Source: Octopus vulgaris (Eukaryota). Taken from it: a DNA stretch of 64,000 nucleotides. Shown piece by piece: positions 10,214 to 60,243 of this stretch. The notes beneath the pieces were generated by a model. The model did no database searches. It saw only the letters and a list, made by a program, of their open reading frames with translations, and was not told where the DNA came from. Within the stretch, counting starts at the first letter, position 1; the number at the start of each line of letters is the position of its first letter. Location: the NCBI GenBank assembly GCA_951406725.2, contig OX597814.1, forward strand, positions 161,696,001-161,760,000. The letters run 5' to 3'. The position numbers and the translations under genes are program-made.

Positions 10214-10607
10214 CTAGCAGTATCGCCCGGCGTTGCTCGGGTTTGTAAGGGAAATAATTATATAAGCATTTTTAGAGATGTAAAGTATAATAGCCATCTC
10301 AATATGGCTAACCACAAAGGGAGAGGGGTGTTACTGTAGCTTTTTACGTTCTGAGATTTAATAATAAATTTTAGAGAGTTACTTCCCTTATATATGTCAA
10401 AAATGGATTAAAAATGTGAAAAATTGATGGTAAATTTTTTTTAAATCGTAGACTCATCGTAGACGCGCGCTAATACCCAGACGGTCTCAATATGAATCAC
10501 GACTATAAGATACCCGGTTTTGGTTAAACTGCACCGCAAAATGTGGGAGTAGTTAGGAATCTAAATCGTAGGAGACAGACACACAACCTCACTTTTATAT
10601 ATAAAGA
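10214..10607 (-). mobile_element. Non-autonomous Helitron (second family)
   Basis: The minus strand runs A|TCtttatatataaaagtgagg ... cccgagcaacgccgggcgatactgCTAG. A closely similar copy lies on the + strand at 12944-13338. Confidence 0.88.
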
Positions 10608-10668
10608 TTTCCTCTATTTACATAATATTGAGGTCTCTTTCTTTCTTTTGTTATCTTACTGTTTTTAC

Positions 10669-10701
<33 letters not shown>

Positions 10702-10777
10702 TATATATATATAGTTACAGAGATGTACTTGCATAGCAAGTGACTTGATCTGAGATCGTGTGCTGGAACGAAAACAG

Positions 10778-11036
10778 TTGCAGCGTTGAAGGTGTTTATA
10801 AGCCATTTAAGAAACACACAAAAACCGTTAGATTCACTTCAACATTTAAATTTAATTTGTCAAAATATTTTCGTCGCTTTGAGACCGCGACCTGTTAGCA
10901 CAATATTTTTGTCAGTGAACAGGTCGCGGTCTTAAAGCGACGAAAATATTTTGGCAAATTAAATTTAAATGTTGAAGTGAATGTAACGGTTTTTGTGTGT
11001 TTCTTAAATGGCTTACAAACACCTTCCACGCTGCAA
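10778..11036. repeat. Fold-back inverted repeat (119-bp arms, 21-nt spacer) between (TA)n tracts; PLE-terminal-repeat-like
   Basis: 10778-10896 is the reverse complement of 10918-11036 with only a few mismatches. Confidence 0.95.
10908..10958 (+). ncRNA. Minimal type-I hammerhead ribozyme motif with G3-C8 variant core
   Basis: tttgtca [gtgaaca] g gtcgc-ggtcttaaa-gcgac [gaa] aatatt t tggcaaa: 7-bp stem I, 5-bp stem II and a palindromic stem III. Confidence 0.65.
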
Positions 11037-11084
11037 TATATATATACACACATATATATATATGTATGTATGTATGTATGTGTG

Positions 11085-11335
11085 TATATGTGTATGCATG
11101 TATGTGTGTGTGTGTGCGTGTCTGTGCTTGTGATTGTCCTCCACCACTGCTTGACAACGAATGTTGGTTTGTTTACATCCCTGTCACCTAGTGGTTTGAC
11201 AAAGGAAACAGATAGAATAAGTACAATGCTTACAAAAATAAAACTGGAGTTGATTCATTAAACTACAATTCTTCAAGGCATTGCCCCAGCATGGCCACAG
11301 ACCAATGGCTGGAAAAAGCAGAAGAATAAAAGAAT
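11085..11335 (+). mobile_element. SINE 3' half (CR1-type tail)
   Basis: gcttgacaac..tgttggtttgtttacatccc..gatagaataagtac..gccccagcatggccacag, as in 14391-14840. Confidence 0.8.
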
Positions 11336-11401
11336 ACATTCTCTGCTTTGGTCTTATGTTCAAGGCATGAGAAAGCTTGAGTTTACATGAGAAGGCCTAA
11401 C

Positions 11402-11666
11402 AGACCTGGTAGAAACAGCAGCCAAATCTCCCTCAAATCACACCTTACTGTCTTATGTATGTATATATATATGAGCCAATGAGGGGACCTCTACATGGTA
11501 GCTAGACCTGGTAGAAATAGCAGCCAAATTTCCCCCAAATCACACCTTACTGTCTTATCTATGTATATATGTATGTATGAGCCTATGAGGGAGACCCCTA
11601 CATGGCAGCTAGACATGGTAGAAATAGCAGCCAAATCTCCCTCAAATCACATCTTACTGTCTTATC
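11402..11666 (+). repeat. Three tandem ~102-107 bp units
   Basis: agacctggtagaaatagcagccaaatctccctcaaatcacaccttactgtctta (with variants) starts at 11402, 11504 and 11611. Confidence 0.9.
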
Positions 11667-11907
11667 TTTCTGCTACTTGGATATAGGTGTTATATTCGTC
11701 TAAAAAAACTTTCCTGTCACACACTCACGCACACGCACACACACACACACACGCACCCTCACACACACACACACGCGCACACACACACACACACTCACAC
11801 ACACGCACGTTAGCTTACAATTTTATTTATATATTTGCGTGTCTATGTGTGGAAAGAGGAAGTGGGAGGCAGAGTGAAAGAATCACTCACTACAGTAAGT
11901 GAATTAC

Positions 11908-12428
11908 TTTCATTTTATTCGTTGCCCACTGTGTGTGTGCGTTTGCGTGTGGTGTAAACCAGACTAAGAAAAGCATTTGACACACACACCAGAATGTGAG
12001 TTTTCTGTAAATTTTGCTTAATTGGAGTTTAAATTTTAAAAACTGGACCTGGCATGACGCGATGCATTGTACTCTTAAAAATGCTAGGTAAATTGTAATT
12101 GAAGAAATCCTATATTGTAGATTTGTATAACTCCCAAAGGGAGGCAGATTTTATCTGCCTATAAGAGATTATAAAAGGCAGATTTTATCTGCCTCCCTTT
12201 GGGAGTTATACAAATCTACAATATAGCATTTCTTCAATTACAATTTACCTAGCATTTTTAAGAGTACAATGCATCGCGTCATGCCAGGTCCAGTTTTTAA
12301 AATTTAAACTCCAATTAAGCAAAATTTACAGAAAATTCACATTCTGGTGTGTGTGTCAAATGCTTTTCTTAGTCTGGTTTACACCACACGCAAACGCACA
12401 CACACAGTGTGTAACGAATAAAGTGAAA
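11908..12428. repeat. Long fold-back inverted repeat (~240-bp arms), possibly head-to-head Helitron-like 5' ends
   Basis: 11908-12149 is a near-perfect reverse complement of 12187-12428. The centre holds two copies of aggcagattttatctgcct. Confidence 0.93.
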
Positions 12429-12943
12429 CTAGATGTAATATTTGTTTCTCTCTATCACGCTGATAGATACATGAGTAAAATGTATGGGAAGCTAACAGAT
12501 AACAGTGAGTGAAAATGTTCTTGGAAGAGAGTAAATTAGCGACAGAGTGATTTGAGGAAGACTAAACTGAAAGTATGAAACAGTGTTTATGTATAAACAG
12601 ACGACACTTATATAAACCCTTTCGTTACCAAACCGCCCGAATTTACCTATTCATATTTAAATGAGAATATCAGAGTAAATCTCTTTAGTACATTCGTGAA
12701 AACACGTATTATACTTCGTAAACACTTCAAATACAGTTTTGTACAAAAATCGAAGTGTAATTTTAATTCCGTGAATTATGGGAGATTTTTTTCTGAAATT
12801 TGTTCCTATTATGTTTGCAAAATTTGTAATTCTGACGAAAAATGGATACGAATTTCATTATATCAAGCAGCGAGTCAGAATTCGAAGGATTTTCTACTGA
12901 AGACCTTCATAAATCTAACTCTATGACTGAAAAAAAAAAAGCA

Positions 12944-19339: not shown

Positions 19340-20000
19340 CAGGGGTTGAACAAAGTAATGGAAACACCTTAAAATTTCAAACAAATTAATTTTAATATAA
19401 GATAGGACCGCCTTTGGCAGTAATTACAGCTTGAATTCTATGAGGTATGGGCTCGTACAAAGATTGAATTATTTCCAAAGAAATTTTATCCGTTCTTCAG
19501 CTAAAACAGTCTCCAGTTCTTGTAGTGATGATGGTGGAGGATATTGACTCTTTACTTGCTTTTCTAAAATGCACCATAAATGTTCAATAATATTGAGATC
19601 TGAGGACTGTAGTAGCCAGATAAGATGTTCAACTTCACTAGAATGTTCCTCATGCCATTCAGTAGCAACTTTAGCTGTATGAATTGGTGCATTATCATCC
19701 TGAAAGATTACGTTTCCCTCCGAAAACAGTTCTGCAACCATAGGATGAGTTTGATCAGATAAAATGCTTAAACAGTCTTGACTATTAATTCTGCCATGAA
19801 GGGAAACCATTGGGCTGGCAGATTTCCAAGATATACCCCCCCCCCTCAGCTCATTACAGTTGGAAGAAGGCAGTCTGGGTCAAATATTTCTCATGGCTGT
19901 CCCCACACATATACTTGGCCAGTGGTTGGAAATAAGGTACAGGGTGACTCATCCAAGAAAACAACATTCTTCCACTGCTCTAGGGATCAATTCTTTTTCT
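19340..20000 (-). mobile_element. Tc1-family (DD34E) transposon, 3' half
   Basis: ORF 19469-19810 contains IFQDDNAPIHTAK and QSSDLNIIEHLW. The terminus is TA|caggggttgaacaaagtaatggaaacacc. Confidence 0.9.
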
Positions 20001-22374: not shown

Positions 22375-24690
22375 TTGGAATTTACAAAAAAAAATAAAAA
22401 ACAAATATGGATATGTAAACAACAAACCGATGTATTAGTTTAAAGCTTGAGAAGTGAGAAAGTCTTTCACGTTTTGAGCCTACACCCTTCAACAGAAAGG
22501 AACACAGAAATAAAGAGAGAGAAAAATAAAGTTAAGTGGCTTGTGATCAATCATGGACAGAGGTGGTCAGACAGGAGAGCTAGGAAGAAGGGGAGATAAT
22601 AAAGTAGTGGTGATCCCAAAATGAAGGTGCACATGCATGTCAGAGTGTGTGTGTGTACATGTGGATAGGGGCTGGTGACCTTGATGTGGGCATGTGTTCA
22701 TTTGTAGGTGTGTGGATGATGGTATGGGTAGTGGGAAGTGGTCAGTGCTAGTGTGTGGGGTGGTGTGGTGTGGTGTGGTGTGGTATGGTGGTGTTTAGTG
22801 TGGTGGTGTTGGGGTGTGGGGGAAGAGGGGGATGCAAGGGTGGGGTAAGGTGGGGCATGTAGGAGTGGGGTATGTGGGTAGGGATGGGGTATGTGGGAGT
22901 GGAATGTGTGTAATGGGGCGGGAGTGGGATGAGATGTATAGGGATGGTGGGGTTGGAATGTATAGGGGTGGGTAACAACAGAGGGGTGACGATGAAGGGA
23001 GATGGTGGAAGGGAGAATGTGGGTAGGAGTGAAGAGAGGAAGTAAGTGTCAGAGCAAGAGAGAAGAGAGGTAGGTGAGAATGAAGGAAGGAAGTACGTGT
23101 GAGAGGAAGAGAACAGAGAGGAGGGGGTTAGATGAAGAGGGGAGGTGAGTTGAGCCCATGTGGTGCAAAGGAGTGAAGAGAAAAGATGAATTTCTGTTTA
23201 CAGCAAAGATGGGAGTCCGGATGGACTCTGTGCAAGGACAATCTGAACACAGACAGGTGTAAAGAATGACCAGTAGAGCAGAAATGACACTAGACTGGGG
23301 TGTCATTGCCAAGGTAGCGATGGTGTACATGAAGCCCCTCGTGGTGAGGGATCACCGGTATAGGCTCTTGATGTTGAGTGAAGAGAAGTTTAGAAGAGTC
23401 AGGAGGGAAGGAGAAAGAGTTGAACAGATGAAGAGCATAGTTAGTGTCATGGATGTGAGAGGGGAGAGAAACCACAAAGGGAGGGTGCAAGGAGATGGTC
23501 AAGATATCTGGAGATGAGTTTGGTGGGGCAGTTGCAGGCGGAGACAATGGGGCATCCAGGGTTGTTAGGTTTGTGAATTTTGGGGATGAAGTAAATTGTG
23601 GGGATGCGAGGGGTGTGGACAATGAGGTTGGAGGTGGTGGGGGGAGAAGGGAGGAGGAGATGACGTCTGGATAGTAGAGAACACCATCTATTGGTAGCTG
23701 GATGTGGGGTTGGAGGGCAGAGGGCAGTAGGAGGAAGTGTCTTGAAGGTGTCGGAGAGCTTTGGCCTTGTAGAGGTCTGCACACCACACCACCATGGCTC
23801 CACACTTGTCAGCCAGTTTTATGATGATGTTTTTGCGGTGTTGGAGACATTAAATGGCCAAGAGTTCGGCTGGAGAGATGTTCAGATGTCGGGGACGCCT
23901 GGAAAAGTCAAACGCCCGCAAAAAGGAACTGGCCAGAACCTGGTGTCTACTGAGATGGTTGGCGGCAAGGTTGGTGAAGCAATCCTCCTCATTAGAGGCA
24001 GGTGGAGTGTCGCAGAATAGCACACACAACCTAACACGGCGCACAAAGTTGTGGATATCAGCACGAGTCCGAAATTCGTTGTTGGAAGGAGTGAGGGGGA
24101 TGAAGGGCAGGCCCCTACTGAGGAGGGAGTGCTCCGCCTCAGAGAGGGGAAGATCTGGAGAAATAGTAGCAACAGACTGAAGTGGAGAAGGGGTGGATGG
24201 GACAGAAGAGGTGGGTAGTGGACGGCTAGGAGGGAAGGGATGAGGGGTAGGTGTGTGTGGGGGGGTCAGAGTGATGGGGTTGGTGAGGGTGGGGGAGCAT
24301 ACCAGGGAGGGAGGAGGCTGGGGAGTAGTTGGGATAGTGGCATCGGGTGTGATGGAATGGAGGAGTGAGTGGAGTTTACATTGTTTGGTGTGAGCAAGAA
24401 ATTCATGAAAGAGATTATTTAAATGGATTATGTAAAGTAAAGTGGAGTTTGTATGGGAGGGCAATTGAGAGGAGAAGATGGAAAAAGCAAGAGGGAGAAG
24501 CCAGTCGATGGTGTGCATTTTGGAGAGATTAGAACAAACAGTGGAGTGCATAAGGCAGTAGGAAGTAGTATGGAGTATGGGTAGGATAGTTGAAGCAGAG
24601 TGGAGAGTAAGGTGGAAATGGAGGCGGAAACCTTTAGGGATGAGGCAGTGATGAAGGCAGTGACTGAGAAAGGAAACGTGGCTAGAGAAG
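22375..24690 (-). mobile_element. Penelope-like element, internally deleted, with 3' terminal repeat
   Basis: LSEAEHSLLSRGLPFIP, IYFIPKIHKPNNPGCPIVSACNCPTKLISRYLD and SHIHDT..IPHHEGL are followed directly by GIY-YIG C-terminal TPV.HF.STGHS...FIFSLHSFAPHGLN. A C-rich 3' UTR follows. Confidence 0.9.
22464..22499 (-). ncRNA. Degenerate minimal hammerhead motif in a PLE terminal repeat
   Basis: cttt CTGTTGA a gggtgtaggctc aAAAC GTg aaag. G12 and the cleavage base are mutated in this copy; a related copy lies at 63606-63640. Confidence 0.45.
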
Positions 24691-24750
24691 CTATATATAT
24701 ATAAATAGATGAGTGTCTTTTTCCCTTGTTAACATATATATTAATATATA

Positions 24751-49399: not shown

Positions 49400-50110
49400 T
49401 CGAACATGAAATAGTTGTTCAGTAGGATGAATTTCAGTGCTGCAATTATGAATCTGGTTGATGTGTCCTGAAATTTCTTCTGGGTATTTTTCTAGCTAGA
49501 AGGTGATTGCTTCTGTACCATAACTGTGTGGGATATTGGTGTACAAGTTCACATCGAATGATTCTAACAGAGTTCCTTCTTCGGGAGGTGGTTAAGCATG
49601 TCTAAGTCATCCCTGTTGAAGTTTTTCACATATTTTAGAAATGGTTTGAGTAAAATGTCGAGGAAATTGCTCAAACGGTAGGTTTCACAAGCAGGGCCAG
49701 TAATGATGGGTCTTAGTTTGAGGTCAGTAGGGGGAGGAACATCAACGCATAGGCGTGGAGAATTTGCAAGCTTTACAAATATGTGGGTTTTTGTGTATTT
49801 TAGGTAATTCGTAGAATAGACTTGGTCTGTATTCAAAATTGGATAAATAGTCAATTTCTTTTTTAGTGAGGCCCTTTCCATGTATTTGAAGTAAGGAGGA
49901 TAAGTTTTTAAGTGTCTTCTGTGGGTTGTTTTGTACTATCTTCTCATTGTAAATATTGTTTTCCAACGTGGAGAGAATAAAATTTTTATAGTACTCTGTG
50001 TCCATCACTACTACCGCACTTCCTTTATCGGCTTTTTTAATGGTCAGGTTAATATCATTTTCTAACTCGATTAGGTTTTTCCATTCATTTGTGTTAAGGT
50101 TGGATTTAAT
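49400..50110 (-). mobile_element. Penelope-like element RT N-terminal part
   Basis: IKKADKGSAVVVMDTEYY, FYELPKIHK, LRPIITGPACETYRLSNFLDILLKP and FDVNLYTNIPHSYG. Confidence 0.92.
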
Positions 50111-52631: not shown

Positions 52632-53745
<1,114 letters not shown>

Positions 53746-53873
53746 ATAACATATCAGTGCCCTGGGTGAGGTATGAACTCAGAATCTCTGCATTCTTCAC
53801 CCATGACTCACACAACAAAGGTACTGTCTATAAGTACGATGTGCTCAGTGATTATATATATATATATATATAT

Positions 53874-56618
53874 ATCCGTGGGGACCTCACACCCCAGGTC
53901 CTTTTGTCATACTCAAACTCGGTGTGTGACACACTAATTGTACACATAAGGCAACTTGATGTAGTTGTGTGTGCTACATATCGCCCTCCAGATGCCCCAA
54001 GTCATATGGGCAAGTTTGAGGACTGCCTTTTAAAAATAGAAGAAGTTCTAATCACATTAGAACAACACATAAGTGTACTTCTCATAGGAGACTTCAATCT
54101 ACCCAATGTCAGATGGCCCGAGGGCCTTTCTCTCCCAGGAATGACAAGATGTGAACGAGGACAGGCGAGGTCCCTCCTGAACCTCATCAACACCCTGTAC
54201 ATGGAGCAAGTAATACTCCAACCAACCAGAGCAGGTAACACACTGGATCTCTGCTTCACAAATAATATGGATCTCATCCATAATGTGAAAGTGACACCGA
54301 CACTACTCTCGGATCACATGGTAGAGCTGACCATGTACGGGCCAAAAGAGAGCACGGACATGCAGCCTACAAGAAACCCTCAGAATCTTTCCAGCTTGAA
54401 CTTCAATAAGGCAAACTGGAAACAAATTGAGAAAGAGATCCTCAAACAAAACTGGCCTGAATGTCTCTCCTCGCCGGACATCGACATGATACTTCAACAA
54501 TTCATGTCTGTAATGCAAGCCATATGCTACAAATGTGTCCCAGAGAGAAAGGCCACTGTACACAAGAACAAAATCCCCAGAGAGAGGAAAATTTTAATGA
54601 GACGGCGTACAAAAATTTCAAATCGCCTAAACAAACAAATTGAAAGCAGTGAAAAGTCCCGCCTGAAAATAAAACTGTTAGAAATTGAAAATTGTCTGCA
54701 ACTCTCCCATGAGAAGGAGAGAGCAGACAAAGAAGCCTGGGCTATAGACAACATAAAAACTAACCCCAGAGCTTTCTACAGGTATGCCAAAGAAACAGCT
54801 ACGGTGCACTGTAGGATAGGGCCACTCCTTGAAAAGGATGGCACACTCACAGGAAAACCAATGAGGGTAAGTGAAATACTGAATGAACAATTCAAGAGTG
54901 TTTTCACTCCACCCCTTGGGCATTTCCAAATCAGCAATCCAACTGACTTCTTTACCACTGCAGATATAGAATCAGAGGCGGTGACGATAAATTACATCGA
55001 TATAAAGGAAGACGATGTAATAAAGGCTATAGATGAAATGAAAACAGACTCAGCTATTGGCCCCGATGGATTCCCGGCAATCCTCCTAAAAGTATGTAAG
55101 AGAGTCCTAGCAAGACCACTGCAGTTCCTCTTTCAGAGCTTCCTTGCAGCTGGCAAACTTCCAAGAAAACTGAAGGAAGGTAAAATATGCCCTATTCATA
55201 AAGGAGGTAGCAGAGCGGAGGCCAAGAACTACAGACCTATCTCTCTGACCTCACACATCAGCAAGGTCATGGAACGAATAGTCAGAAGGAAACTAATCAC
55301 CTTCCTTGAAGAAAACGACTTGCTGCCTGACACCCAACATGGTTTCCGACCAGGAAGAAGCTGCTTAACTCAGCTCCTGCAGCACTATGACTGGGTGCTG
55401 AAACAACTGCTCAACCACTCAAATGTGGAAGTCATATATCTCGACTTCGCAAAGGCCTTCGATAAAGTCGATCATGGAATGATATGTCACAAACTGCGTG
55501 ATCTTGGCATAGTTGGAAAACTAGGAGAATGGCTTCATGACTTTCTGAAGAATAGAAGTCAGGTGGTAGCAGCTAATGGGGCCACTTCCATTAGCACGCA
55601 AATAGTGAGCGGTGTTCCACAGGGCACTGTTTTGGGACCACTACTGTTCATAATGGCCCTCTCAGACATGCCCTCAGCCACGCGGAGAGCCACGATCACA
55701 AGTTATGCAGATGATACAAAAGTTTCACAGGCAATACAGAACCCTGAAGACACTAAGCACCTGCAATGTGAGCTGGACGAAATATACAAGTGGGCTGAAA
55801 AGAATAGAATGCAGTTCAATGCTGAAAAGTTTCAAGCTTTATACTATCAGCATGCAAAACTGAATGCAATACCCAATGAATACACTGGACCCGGAGGGAT
55901 TGCAATCCCAGAGGCACAATCAGTGCGTGACCTGGGTATTCACATGAGTGATGACGCGACCTTTCATGTACATGTTGCTAAACTGACAATGAAATGCAGA
56001 CGGCTGGCTGGATGGATTCTTAGAACCTTTAGAACAAGAGAACAAGAAACCATGATGGTCCTCTGGAAGACACTTGTCCTAAGCCACTTTGACTATTGCT
56101 CTCAGCTATGGTCACCATCCAGTGTCAAGTTGATCACAGAACTTGAGGCGATCCAACAAAGCTACACGAAGAAGATAGCCTCGTATGTGCAGCATACGAG
56201 CTACTGGGAGAGACTCAAGAGATTAAAGCTCTATTCCCTGGAGCGTAGGCGAGAAAGATATGCCATAATATATATCTGGAAGATCCTGGAAGGTCTTGTC
56301 CCAGACTTTGGCATCGAGAGTCACACAAACGCCAGAACCGGACGCCACTGCGTAGTACCAAGGACTCCAAATTTGCCATCAAGATGTAGGACAAGATATT
56401 GTGATAGCCTGAGCTTCAGAGGCCCACGGCTCTTCAATGTCCTCCCGAAGAACCTGAGGGACCTGCATGGTGTAGATGCGGATGTCTTTAAAGTAGGACT
56501 GGATCTCTTCCTGTCAGGTGTCCCGGATGAACCAACTTCACGGCAGGAGGTGCAGATGAGGGCAGCTGCATCGAACTCTCTCATGCATCAGATGGCGTTT
56601 GCTAAAAAGCATCCGTGA
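53874..56618 (+). CDS. CR1-group LINE ORF2 (5'-truncated APE endonuclease plus reverse transcriptase), 914 codons without a stop
   Basis: APE motifs YRPP, LIGDFNLP, PTRAGNTLDL and SDH. RT motifs NYRPISLTS, QHGFRPGRSC, YLDFAKAFDKVDH, SGVPQGTVLGPLLF, YADD and DLG; C-terminal LERRRER. No native start is present. Confidence 0.93.
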   Translation: MRGDLTPQVLLSYSNSVCDTLIVHIRQLDVVVCATYRPPDAPSHMGKFEDCLLKIEEVLITLEQHISVLLIGDFNLPNVRWPEGLSLPGMTRCERGQARSLLNLINTLYMEQVILQPTRAGNTLDLCFTNNMDLIHNVKVTPTLLSDHMVELTMYGPKESTDMQPTRNPQNLSSLNFNKANWKQIEKEILKQNWPECLSSPDIDMILQQFMSVMQAICYKCVPERKATVHKNKIPRERKILMRRRTKISNRLNKQIESSEKSRLKIKLLEIENCLQLSHEKERADKEAWAIDNIKTNPRAFYRYAKETATVHCRIGPLLEKDGTLTGKPMRVSEILNEQFKSVFTPPLGHFQISNPTDFFTTADIESEAVTINYIDIKEDDVIKAIDEMKTDSAIGPDGFPAILLKVCKRVLARPLQFLFQSFLAAGKLPRKLKEGKICPIHKGGSRAEAKNYRPISLTSHISKVMERIVRRKLITFLEENDLLPDTQHGFRPGRSCLTQLLQHYDWVLKQLLNHSNVEVIYLDFAKAFDKVDHGMICHKLRDLGIVGKLGEWLHDFLKNRSQVVAANGATSISTQIVSGVPQGTVLGPLLFIMALSDMPSATRRATITSYADDTKVSQAIQNPEDTKHLQCELDEIYKWAEKNRMQFNAEKFQALYYQHAKLNAIPNEYTGPGGIAIPEAQSVRDLGIHMSDDATFHVHVAKLTMKCRRLAGWILRTFRTREQETMMVLWKTLVLSHFDYCSQLWSPSSVKLITELEAIQQSYTKKIASYVQHTSYWERLKRLKLYSLERRRERYAIIYIWKILEGLVPDFGIESHTNARTGRHCVVPRTPNLPSRCRTRYCDSLSFRGPRLFNVLPKNLRDLHGVDADVFKVGLDLFLSGVPDEPTSRQEVQMRAAASNSLMHQMAFAKKHP

Positions 56619-58780: not shown

Positions 58781-60243
58781 ATCCTTTAGTTTTTAAACTG
58801 GCCATATCCAGCCCCAAATTTTCTACCTGTTTTACGTTCAAACTGGCTAGATCTGGCCTATCACATGTACCTAACAATGTCAGAGTAAAAATATACAATT
58901 GCATCATTGAAATCTCAAAGCTACAAGATAATGCATGATTAATTCAAATCAATGTGAATAAATATCAGGTCATCCCATAAGTTCTGTCAGGATTTTGAAT
59001 AAAGAAAACAAGTGATCAAATGTTATATTTAATTGAAATTCAATCATCAGTGTACTTTCCCTGATTATCTGTGACTTCCTTCCATCTATTTACAAGCTTT
59101 TTAATCCCATCAATGTAAAACTCTTTTGGTTTCAAAGCGAAGAACTCTGAAATGTCATTTCGACCTCCTCCTGGCTTGCAAAAGTTATGTCCCTCAAATG
59201 ATTTTGTAAACTATGAAACAAATGGTAGTCTGAAGGAGCAAGGTCGGGAGAATAAGGTGGATGAGGAATTTTTTCCCAACCAAGCTCTTCAATCTTTGCA
59301 GTGTGGAGTCGTGCATTGTCCTGATGAAACATCACTCCTTTTCAATTCACTAAAGCAAGTAATTTTTTCTTCAAAGCTTGGTTCAAATGCTCTAATTGCT
59401 GACAGTAGACTTGAGCATTGATTGTTACATTAGGTGCTAACAATTCAAAGTGAATTACTCCTTTGCAATCCCACCAGAGTGAGAGAGAAGAACCTTTTCC
59501 CTTTTACCAAGCCACTGTTTACAACATTTAACATTTCGAAAGAAGATCCATTTTTCGTCACCAGTCACAAGTCTATCCAAAAAGGGTGAAATGAGTTTGC
59601 AAGAATGGAGAGAAGAGCAGATGTCAACTCGGGATTTGTGGTAGCTTTTGGACAATTCATGAGGTACCCATTTTCCAAGTTTAGAAACCTTTCCAAGTTG
59701 TTGAAGATGACGATGAACAGTTGTATGGTTTGAACTAAGCTTTATTGCCAATTCTTCAACTGATAATACAGGATTTTCTTCAAGTAATGCCTCAAGGAGC
59801 TTATCATCAAACTCAGCTGGACATCCTGTTCGATCTTCATCTTCAAAGCTGAAATCTCCACTTCTGAATTTTGCAAACCTTCTTCTGCAAGTTCTTTCAT
59901 TCAAGCATTTTTTCCCATAAACTGAGTGTATGTTCCAAGTCGCTTTGGCTGCAGAGTTTCCTTTTTTGTACTCATAAAGCATTATGTACCTCAAATGCTC
60001 TTTGGATACTTCCATGTTTGAAAGGGTTTTAATCATAGAAATTTTAATTCTATTATTCTGTAAAATAATATTTAATTAGTTTAAATGTACATAAATGCAT
60101 AAAAATAATTAAAAATTCCATTAGACATTCTAAAATACTATTAAATTTCATTCAATTTTAAAAAAGGTAAAATCAGACAGAACTTATGAGATGATCTGAT
60201 AAATAAACATTACATTTGACAGAATAATCTGAATGATAAAAAG
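58781..60243. mobile_element. TTAA-flanked piggyBac-type MITE inside a Meta-like SINE (~58605-60270), itself interrupted by a mariner
   Basis: ttaa|tcctttagtttttaaactggcc ... tctgaatgataaaaag|ttaa. The SINE core lies before it and the SINE tail (gcaccaaaatttgaaa) after it. Confidence 0.55.
58965..60199 (-). mobile_element. Mariner (DD34D) transposon with intact TIRs and a broken transposase
   Basis: TA|tcaggtcatcccataagttctgtc ... gacagaacttatgagatgatctga|TA. Motifs WVPHEL, LVTGDEKW, HQDNARLH and HPPYSPDLAPSDYHLF. Confidence 0.95.

What the first reader, a model, noticed from the sequence alone, without database searches (positions are those of the whole stretch)
10908..10958. Hammerhead with the C3-G8 tertiary pair inverted (GUGAACA, G3-C8)
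The sequence folds as a type-I hammerhead. Stem I is uuuguca/uggcaaa (the mirror arm has the perfect ugacaaa), stem II is gucgc/gcgac, GAA follows, stem III is the palindrome aauauu, and the triplet is UUU. The core reads GUGAACA instead of CUGANGA. The only two deviations are positions 3 and 8, which form a Watson-Crick pair in the active fold, and they are mutually compensatory. That is unlikely from random decay and would be missed by standard CUGANGA searches. The self-complementary stem III suggests cleavage as a dimer.
Basis: partly seen in the sequence, partly recalled or inferred. Interest (0 to 1): 0.85.

Follow-up and report, generated by a model that had tools for sequence, protein, structure and literature searches.

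The report
Swapped-core hammerhead in octopus retrotransposon
This 51-base stretch is one of thousands of copies from a Penelope-like jumping gene in a likely octopus genome and has the shape of a hammerhead self-cutting RNA with its paired core letters 3 and 8 swapped, a form the papers searched describe only as a lab mutant; it likely cuts weakly and in pairs or with protein help, but cutting is untested.

Summary
Confirmed and explained. The motif (10908-10958) is the minimal type-I hammerhead of a Penelope-like retrotransposon (PLE). The window holds a short remnant with an inverted 5' copy, carried in a 2-kb composite repeat. The parent encodes RT plus GIY-YIG endonuclease; the motif lies about 1 kb after its stop and 56 nt before the next unit's ATG. 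G3-C8 is the family state: 3,274 of 3,719 copies with a 9-nt loop II, 2,219 with an 8-nt loop (64 lack C8), none with C3-G8. The sister PLE family (51% aa) and four metagenome relatives carry C3-G8 at the same place and two carry U3-A8, so the pair covaries and G3-C8 is derived. Against a needed cut: 5' ends of copies do not pile up at the cut site, G3-G8 copies recur and spread, and this copy is predicted to be trapped in a 119-bp hairpin. No natural G3-C8 hammerhead was found in five paper searches; one key paper was unreadable. The scan noted a similar core once before, in a protist PLE. New variant of a known kind; activity untested.

The parts
10908..10914 (+). Hammerhead stem I, 5' strand
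10915..10921 (+). Core positions 3-9; G3 at 10915, C8 at 10920
10922..10922 (+). Extra nucleotide between 9 and 10.1, typical of PLE minimal hammerheads
   Evidence: PMC4209133
10923..10941 (+). Stem II (5 bp, G10.1-C11.1) with a 9-nt loop that varies in length and sequence between subfamilies
10942..10951 (+). G12-A13-A14, palindromic stem III segment (10945-10950) and U17; predicted cut after 10951
10952..10958 (+). Stem I, 3' strand; the G-U pair is a subfamily variant of A-U
10897..11037 (+). 5'-truncated PLE remnant (pseudo-LTR): leader, hammerhead, ORF start codon at 11008 and the first 10 codons, ending at the shorter of two family 3' ends before (TA)n
10714..10896 (-). Inverted second copy of the remnant, from core position 6 to the longer 3' end; forms a 119-bp hairpin with the main arm
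10214..12169 (+). About 2-kb composite non-coding repeat that carries this remnant as a passenger; the 40 best full-length matches share the junction, so they are not independent

Best explanation
This is the minimal type-I hammerhead motif of an endonuclease-bearing Penelope-like retrotransposon lineage in which the core pair C3-G8 has been replaced by G3-C8, and in the parent element's RNA it likely still cuts after position 17, weakly and likely only as a dimer or with the element's protein. Shown: the anatomy; the place in the pseudo-LTR between the 3' UTR and the ATG; G3-C8 in the youngest autonomous copies and in much older relatives; C3-G8 or U3-A8 at the same place in related PLEs. Inferred: transcription starts about 58 nt before the cut site, and reverse transcription starts inside the ORF at two sites and runs to the capped 5' end, giving the 140- and 205-bp remnants; the templates were uncut, so cutting is not a step in making these copies and more likely trims tandem read-through RNA or limits the pool of template and message. 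The copy in this window is likely inactive, being a passenger whose inverted arm would pair with the core.
For: Family counts: 3,274 of 3,719 G3-C8; 2,219 G3-C8 against 64 non-C8 in the young subfamily; 0 C3-G8; 27 C3-C8. Parent: 18 of 20 endonuclease-anchored loci (picked for long frames or high score from 150 listed) have the G3-C8 motif 1.0-1.2 kb after the stop; L137 has two, 4,261 bp apart, around the ORF; GIY-YIG passes the Pfam cut-off. Covariation: sister family, 51% aa, has C3-G8 with an A-U for G-C change in stem II; of 13 metagenome relatives examined, 4 have C3-G8, 2 have U3-A8, 7 gave no motif; the RT tree puts G3-C8 on one branch beside C3-G8 rows (99/97). Older G3-C8 copies differ at N7, loop II and stem III. 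Runs labelled as four other organisms show no other letter at 5% or more at 10915 or 10920. The engineered C3G/G8C double mutant partly restores cleavage, also in a PLE hammerhead that needs its protein (PMC11167929; PMC8495972).
Against: No cleavage data. At most 2 of the first 100 of 10,185 copies begin at the cut site. G3-G8 copies number 146 against 67 T8 and 29 A8 and 30 of 64 non-C8 in the young subfamily; they arose many times (13 changes), and some carry G8 in both repeats (L099, L107, L125), so predicted-dead sources did spread. The sister family's commonest copies have A9C. The stem III duplex is worth only -0.2 kcal/mol and the unconstrained co-fold does not give the double hammerhead. 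The older G3-C8 set was selected by a pattern that required G3 and C8; with both free, the 7 C8 rows among the first 100 of 668 had G3 in 5, A3 in 1, T3 in 1. Copy counts are not independent events.
Confidence: 0.65

Rival explanations
1. Hammerhead by descent but now almost or wholly inactive: the double change was fixed by drift or hitch-hiking in successive master elements, and the motif is kept as a protein-binding fold, a promoter part or not at all.
For: Inserted copies come from uncut RNA; G3-G8 and A9C variants amplify; hammerhead mutants do not impair PLE insertion in vitro and no RNA reads ended at the cut site (PMC11167929); Naiads spread without canonical hammerheads (PMC8557442).
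Against: G3, C8, the rest of the core and stem II persist while loop II, N7, stem III and the downstream 85 nt (42-60 identical of 85 in 18 older copies) change; position 3-8 is Watson-Crick paired in all three states seen across families.
Confidence: 0.27
2. The swap was driven at DNA level: the motif overlaps the element's internal promoter (start at the A of a TCAG/TTAG just upstream), a promoter preference fixed G3 first, and C8 followed as compensation.
For: 5' ends cluster at that AG with an extra G not in the parent: 31 of 83 non-parent rows (counted by eye) and 7 of 11, as a copied cap would give. D. virilis Penelope has an internal promoter with Inr and DPE (PMC2377424). G3-G8 is commoner than C3-C8 (146 against 27; patterns differ).
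Against: No start-site data; the spacing between start and G3 differs by one base between subfamilies; the same AG also reads as a splice acceptor; G3-G8 copies are scattered, not basal. Not exclusive of the best explanation.
Confidence: 0.1
3. Chance resemblance or random decay of one canonical copy.
For: Fold z-score only -2.3; no Rfam hammerhead hit.
Against: Thousands of copies, fixed position in a PLE, homologous canonical motifs in relatives.
Confidence: 0.01

Closest known systems
Minimal hammerheads of metazoan Penelope-like elements (Cervera and de la Pena 2014, PMC4209133)
   Same: Type I, in the pseudo-LTR, extra base between 9 and 10.1, G10.1-C11.1, palindromic stem III segment, mostly dispersed single copies, predicted dimer cleavage.
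   Different: Core pair is G3-C8; that paper reports C3-G8 and U3-A8, and the text of its supplementary alignment has no GUGANC core.
U3-A8 natural core variants (Perreault 2011, PMC3088659; S. mansoni Cercyon PLEs)
   Same: Natural compensatory change of the 3-8 pair.
   Different: U3-A8 takes two transitions and keeps pyrimidine-purine order; G3-C8 takes two transversions and inverts it.
Engineered C3G/G8C double mutants, including Poseidon of Anolis carolinensis (PMC11167929)
   Same: Same core; same layout with hammerhead near the ORF start, two reverse-transcription start sites inside the ORF and AT-rich targets.
   Different: Here the swap is natural; the ATG lies 56 nt after the cut site rather than 26 nt before it; the two 3' ends are about 60 nt apart rather than 30-40.
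Neptune/Nematis-type EN+ PLEs (PMC8557442)
   Same: One ORF with RT and C-terminal GIY-YIG, CX2-5CxxC linker, partial tandems, inverted 5' copies, (TA)n targets.
   Different: Clade not fixed with reference sequences here; Neptune and Nematis not told apart.

Membership tests
Hammerhead ribozyme, type I | Stems I and II closing the core, G10.1-C11.1, A15.1-U16.1, H17 | tested here: met
Hammerhead ribozyme, type I | U4, G5, A6, A9, G12, A13, A14 | tested here: met
Hammerhead ribozyme, type I | Literal C3 and G8 of the consensus | tested here: not met
   G3 and C8; 0 family copies with C3-G8; no Rfam match. Hence filed as a variant.
Hammerhead ribozyme, type I | Watson-Crick complementarity of positions 3 and 8, covarying across homologues | tested here: met
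   G-C, C-G and U-A in related PLEs
Hammerhead ribozyme, type I | Self-cleavage after position 17 | not testable with these tools
   No assay and no raw RNA reads; indirect footprint negative
PLE minimal hammerhead | Position in the pseudo-LTR of an RT/GIY-YIG element, repeated at both ends of the ORF | tested here: met
PLE minimal hammerhead | Extra base after position 9 and short palindromic stem III | tested here: met
PLE minimal hammerhead | Cleaves as a dimer | tested here: inconclusive
   Palindrome kept while its length changes, but the duplex is only -0.2 kcal/mol
EN+ Penelope-like element (parent) | Single ORF with RT and C-terminal GIY-YIG | tested here: met
   RT recognised by YVDD and neighbouring motifs, no Pfam RT hit
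EN+ Penelope-like element (parent) | Partial tandems, inverted 5' copies, two 3' ends (tail), microsatellite targets | tested here: met
Neptune/Nematis clade | CX2-5CxxC linker before the endonuclease | tested here: met
   CQSNCAVC; criterion from PMC8557442
Neptune/Nematis clade | Placement in an RT tree with reference clades | not tested
   No named reference PLEs in the tree
Non-LTR retrozyme | Head-to-tail tandem array of short hammerhead-bearing units | tested here: not met
   No tandem array at this place; copies are dispersed singles or inverted pairs

The most novel reading that the evidence does not exclude
The first natural G3-C8 hammerhead: an active, inverted-core ribozyme fixed for a long time in an autonomous, recently mobile PLE lineage with over 5,000 intact copies, missed by CUGANGA searches. 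Its cut acts as a brake rather than a step of transposition, since only uncut RNA is copied and mismatched G3-G8 escape variants keep arising.
Probability: 0.4. Interest if true: 0.68.

Novelty: new variant of a known kind. Interest (0 to 1): 0.5.

Why it matters
It would complete the natural evidence for the tertiary 3-8 pair, so far seen in nature as C-G and U-A in the papers read, and shows that searches fixed on the consensus miss whole families (Rfam found nothing here). One genome holds sister PLE families with C3-G8, G3-C8, G3-G8 and A9C cores plus intact autonomous copies: a ready set for the open question of what PLE hammerheads do. The 5'-end footprints already say that inserted copies were made from uncut RNA.

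Tried and rejected
Rfam: no hammerhead hit; best hits were hairpin-shaped miRNA models below threshold. Mirror arm as a second ribozyme: rejected, core broken. G3-G8 as the preserved intermediate of the swap: rejected as it stands, scattered over subfamilies (13 changes, 20.6 shuffled, 119 columns, weak tree) and older relatives already have G3-C8. First search for the ORF continuation led to another, older composite repeat. The AG at the 5' end as a used splice acceptor: it has a branch-point-like motif and pyrimidine tract, but no recurring upstream exon was seen in 100 rows and the 967-nt UTR has no AG/GTR donor; left open. RNA evidence: no RNA holder listed; only contigs were laid, which cannot show ends. 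PDB sequence search gave only weak bacterial RT matches. In the alignment one row (young sister copy) was cut at wrong coordinates and lacks the core, so one search counts 9 of 10 rows at most pairs; its covariation score was reached by 6 of 500 shuffles, which related sequences can give without structure. L079 in the tree has a decayed motif lacking G3. Lunse, Weinberg and Breaker (PMC5785218) is not held.

Full report
Observation. The sequence at 10908-10958 is as described: stem I 10908-10914/10952-10958, core GTGAACA, one extra G, stem II 10923-10927/10937-10941, GAA, the palindrome AATATT, U17 at 10951. It folds with stems I and II (-13.2 kcal/mol, z -2.3) and is the only hit of a relaxed descriptor in the window. 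Rfam does not see it. It lies in the right arm and loop of a 119-bp inverted repeat; the left arm starts at core position 6 and is not a ribozyme.

Family. The genome (2.8 Gb, 227 contigs) is likely an octopus: the best named homologue of the parent protein is annotated Octopus vulgaris, 54%. With positions 3, 7 and 8 free and a 9-nt loop II there are 3,719 matches; 3,274 have G3 and C8, none C3 and G8 (also none with 8-9-nt loops). An 8-nt-loop subfamily adds 2,219 G3-C8 against 64 non-C8. In 30 sampled loci the repeat is about 140 or 205 bp, starts about 20 nt before the core, often has a variable inverted copy at its 5' side and ends at one of two sites before (TA)n or AT-rich DNA. The window's copy is a passenger in a 2-kb composite repeat, 10214-12169.

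Parent. 17 of the first 100 of 2,165 5' ends continue into a shared upstream sequence. All 17 were fetched; two led through about 0.9 kb of UTR to RT and GIY-YIG frames. Of 20 loci picked from 150 endonuclease matches, 18 have the G3-C8 motif 1.0-1.2 kb after the stop and 2 have G3-G8; most are 91-98% identical to L087 in DNA. L137 is a repeat-ORF-repeat unit with two G3-C8 motifs 4,261 bp apart. The ATG lies 56 nt after the predicted cut, and the remnants' 3' ends fall inside the ORF, the layout shown for the Anolis PLE, where reverse transcription starts at two sites inside the ORF (PMC11167929, parts 1-2 of 4 read). The protein has YVDD, a CX2-5CxxC linker and a Pfam GIY-YIG hit, the Neptune/Nematis type by the criteria of PMC8557442 (passages).

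Covariation. A second PLE family in the genome (1,312-aa frame, 51% identical) has a hammerhead at the same place with C3-G8, the same extra G and an A-U for G-C change in stem II; non-G3 motifs of this stem type number 4,911. With 3 and 8 free in the short-loop type, the first 100 of 668 rows were 81 C-G, 5 G-C and 14 single mismatches or decays, none C-C (counted by eye); C3-C8 totals 27. Of 96 G3-C8 motifs with loops of 3-7 nt, 18 of the 30 fetched are older relatives with other N7, loop II and a 4-nt palindrome, 42-60 of 85 downstream bases identical. A metagenome scan gave 26 relatives; of 13 examined with flank, 4 have C3-G8 and 2 U3-A8 shortly after the ORF, all six with a palindromic stem III, and 7 gave no motif. 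In an RT tree of 15 rows the G3-C8 family is one branch, sister to the C3-G8 family (99/97), with C3-G8 and U3-A8 outside (midpoint root, no named references). G3-C8 is therefore derived and old. Contigs of four runs labelled as other organisms show no other letter at 5% or more at either position (contigs drop rare variants).

Mechanism. From established chemistry the base at 8 only has to pair with 3 while its 2'-OH acts in catalysis (PMC6155905 passage); G8C lowers the rate 10^5-fold and C3G partly restores it (PMC8495972 passage), also in a PLE hammerhead that cuts only with its protein. Minimal PLE hammerheads cut weakly and only as multimers or with an extended stem III (PMC4209133, parts 1-2 of 4). 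I infer the same here (0.65). The cut is not a step in making the copies: at most 2 of the first 100 of 10,185 copies start at the cut site, whereas 5' ends cluster 58 nt upstream, with an extra G in 31 of 83 non-parent rows and 7 of 11 loci, which fits reverse transcription to a capped end (inference; an unseen short first exon is not excluded; Penelope has an internal Inr/DPE promoter and a nearby intron, PMC2377424 passages). A cut in the upstream repeat would remove the cap, and a cut in the downstream repeat would remove the priming sites, so trimming of read-through RNA or self-limitation is the likelier role (inference). For the window's copy, a read-through transcript is predicted to fold into the long hairpin (-205.7 kcal/mol) that pairs the core from position 6 on, so it is likely inactive.

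Against. G3-G8 is the commonest change at position 8 (146 against 67 T and 29 A, with about 30 of the first 100 clustered on one contig; 30, 20 and 14 in the young subfamily), arose repeatedly and sometimes sits in both repeats of a copy. The sister family's commonest form has A9C. The stem III duplex is very weak. A largely inactive relic remains possible (0.27).

Known or new. Natural U3-A8 is reported in PMC3088659 (section 8 and passages) and PMC4209133. G3-C8 appeared only as an engineered variant (PMC3884650 passage). Searches for hammerhead with 'G3-C8' (1 paper), 'C3G'+'G8C'+'natural' (2), 'C3-G8'/covariation/natural variants (4), 'G3C8' (0) and 'G3 and C8'+inverted (0) found no natural case; hammerhead+octopus+Penelope listed only PMC8557442, whose supplement lacks a 13-letter core motif of either family. 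The text of supplement 2 of PMC4209133 has no GUGANC core; its file 1 and all figures were not searchable. Lunse et al. (PMC5785218), the largest survey of PLE hammerhead variants, was not held (title seen in a reference list), so a prior report there cannot be excluded. PMC11014351 had no relevant term; PMC6765202 was seen in passages and bioRxiv 2026.07.22.740005 in part 1 of 5.

Verdict. Real feature, first reading supported, new variant of a known kind, interest 0.5.

Noticed in passing
L144-L149, L150-L179 (sister PLE family): Very young PLE family with intact 1,310-1,312-aa frames and tandem copies; its commonest hammerhead has A9C while other copies keep A9. A9C also occurs with U3-A8 in metagenome locus L212.
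   Followed up: partly
G000 genome-wide; cluster on C16 1-11 Mb: C8 changes to G more often than to T or A in two subfamilies independently; unexplained mutational hot spot or selection for non-cutting templates.
   Followed up: partly
L137 about 1715-1720 and family 5' ends: The common 5' end reads both as an initiator-like start and as a splice acceptor with branch point; many copies carry an extra G there.
   Followed up: partly
L138 1532-2013: Chimeric insertion: about 255 bp of the ORF 5' part joined at a short GAGA overlap to the 5' end of a hammerhead-tail copy, a likely template switch.
   Followed up: no
window 10214-12169 and 12176-12431: Composite repeat with ends that recall non-autonomous Helentron-type elements (recalled, untested); contains a 107-bp tandem repeat (11402-11667) and is followed by an inverted copy of its last 256 bp.
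   Followed up: partly
L061-L068: A second, older composite repeat (about 80% identity) has also captured an inverted pair of this PLE remnant.
   Followed up: no
window 49564-50110 (-) and 23290-24728 (-): Broken RT fragments of two other PLE-type elements (DKG and PKIHK motifs); no Pfam hit at E<=0.1 of relevance.
   Followed up: partly
window 53331-56618 (+): 1,095-codon open frame that reads as a LINE endonuclease-RT protein (by motifs; not scanned).
   Followed up: no
window 19469-19879 (-) and 59455-60075 (-): Tc1/mariner-like transposase fragments (by motifs; not scanned).
   Followed up: no
L089 oriented position about 2228; L156; L169: Canonical C3-G8 minimal hammerheads of further PLE families in the same genome.
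   Followed up: no
run X14 at window 10941: About half of the contig depth shows T for C at position 11.1 (G-U for G10.1-C11.1) in organism B.
   Followed up: no
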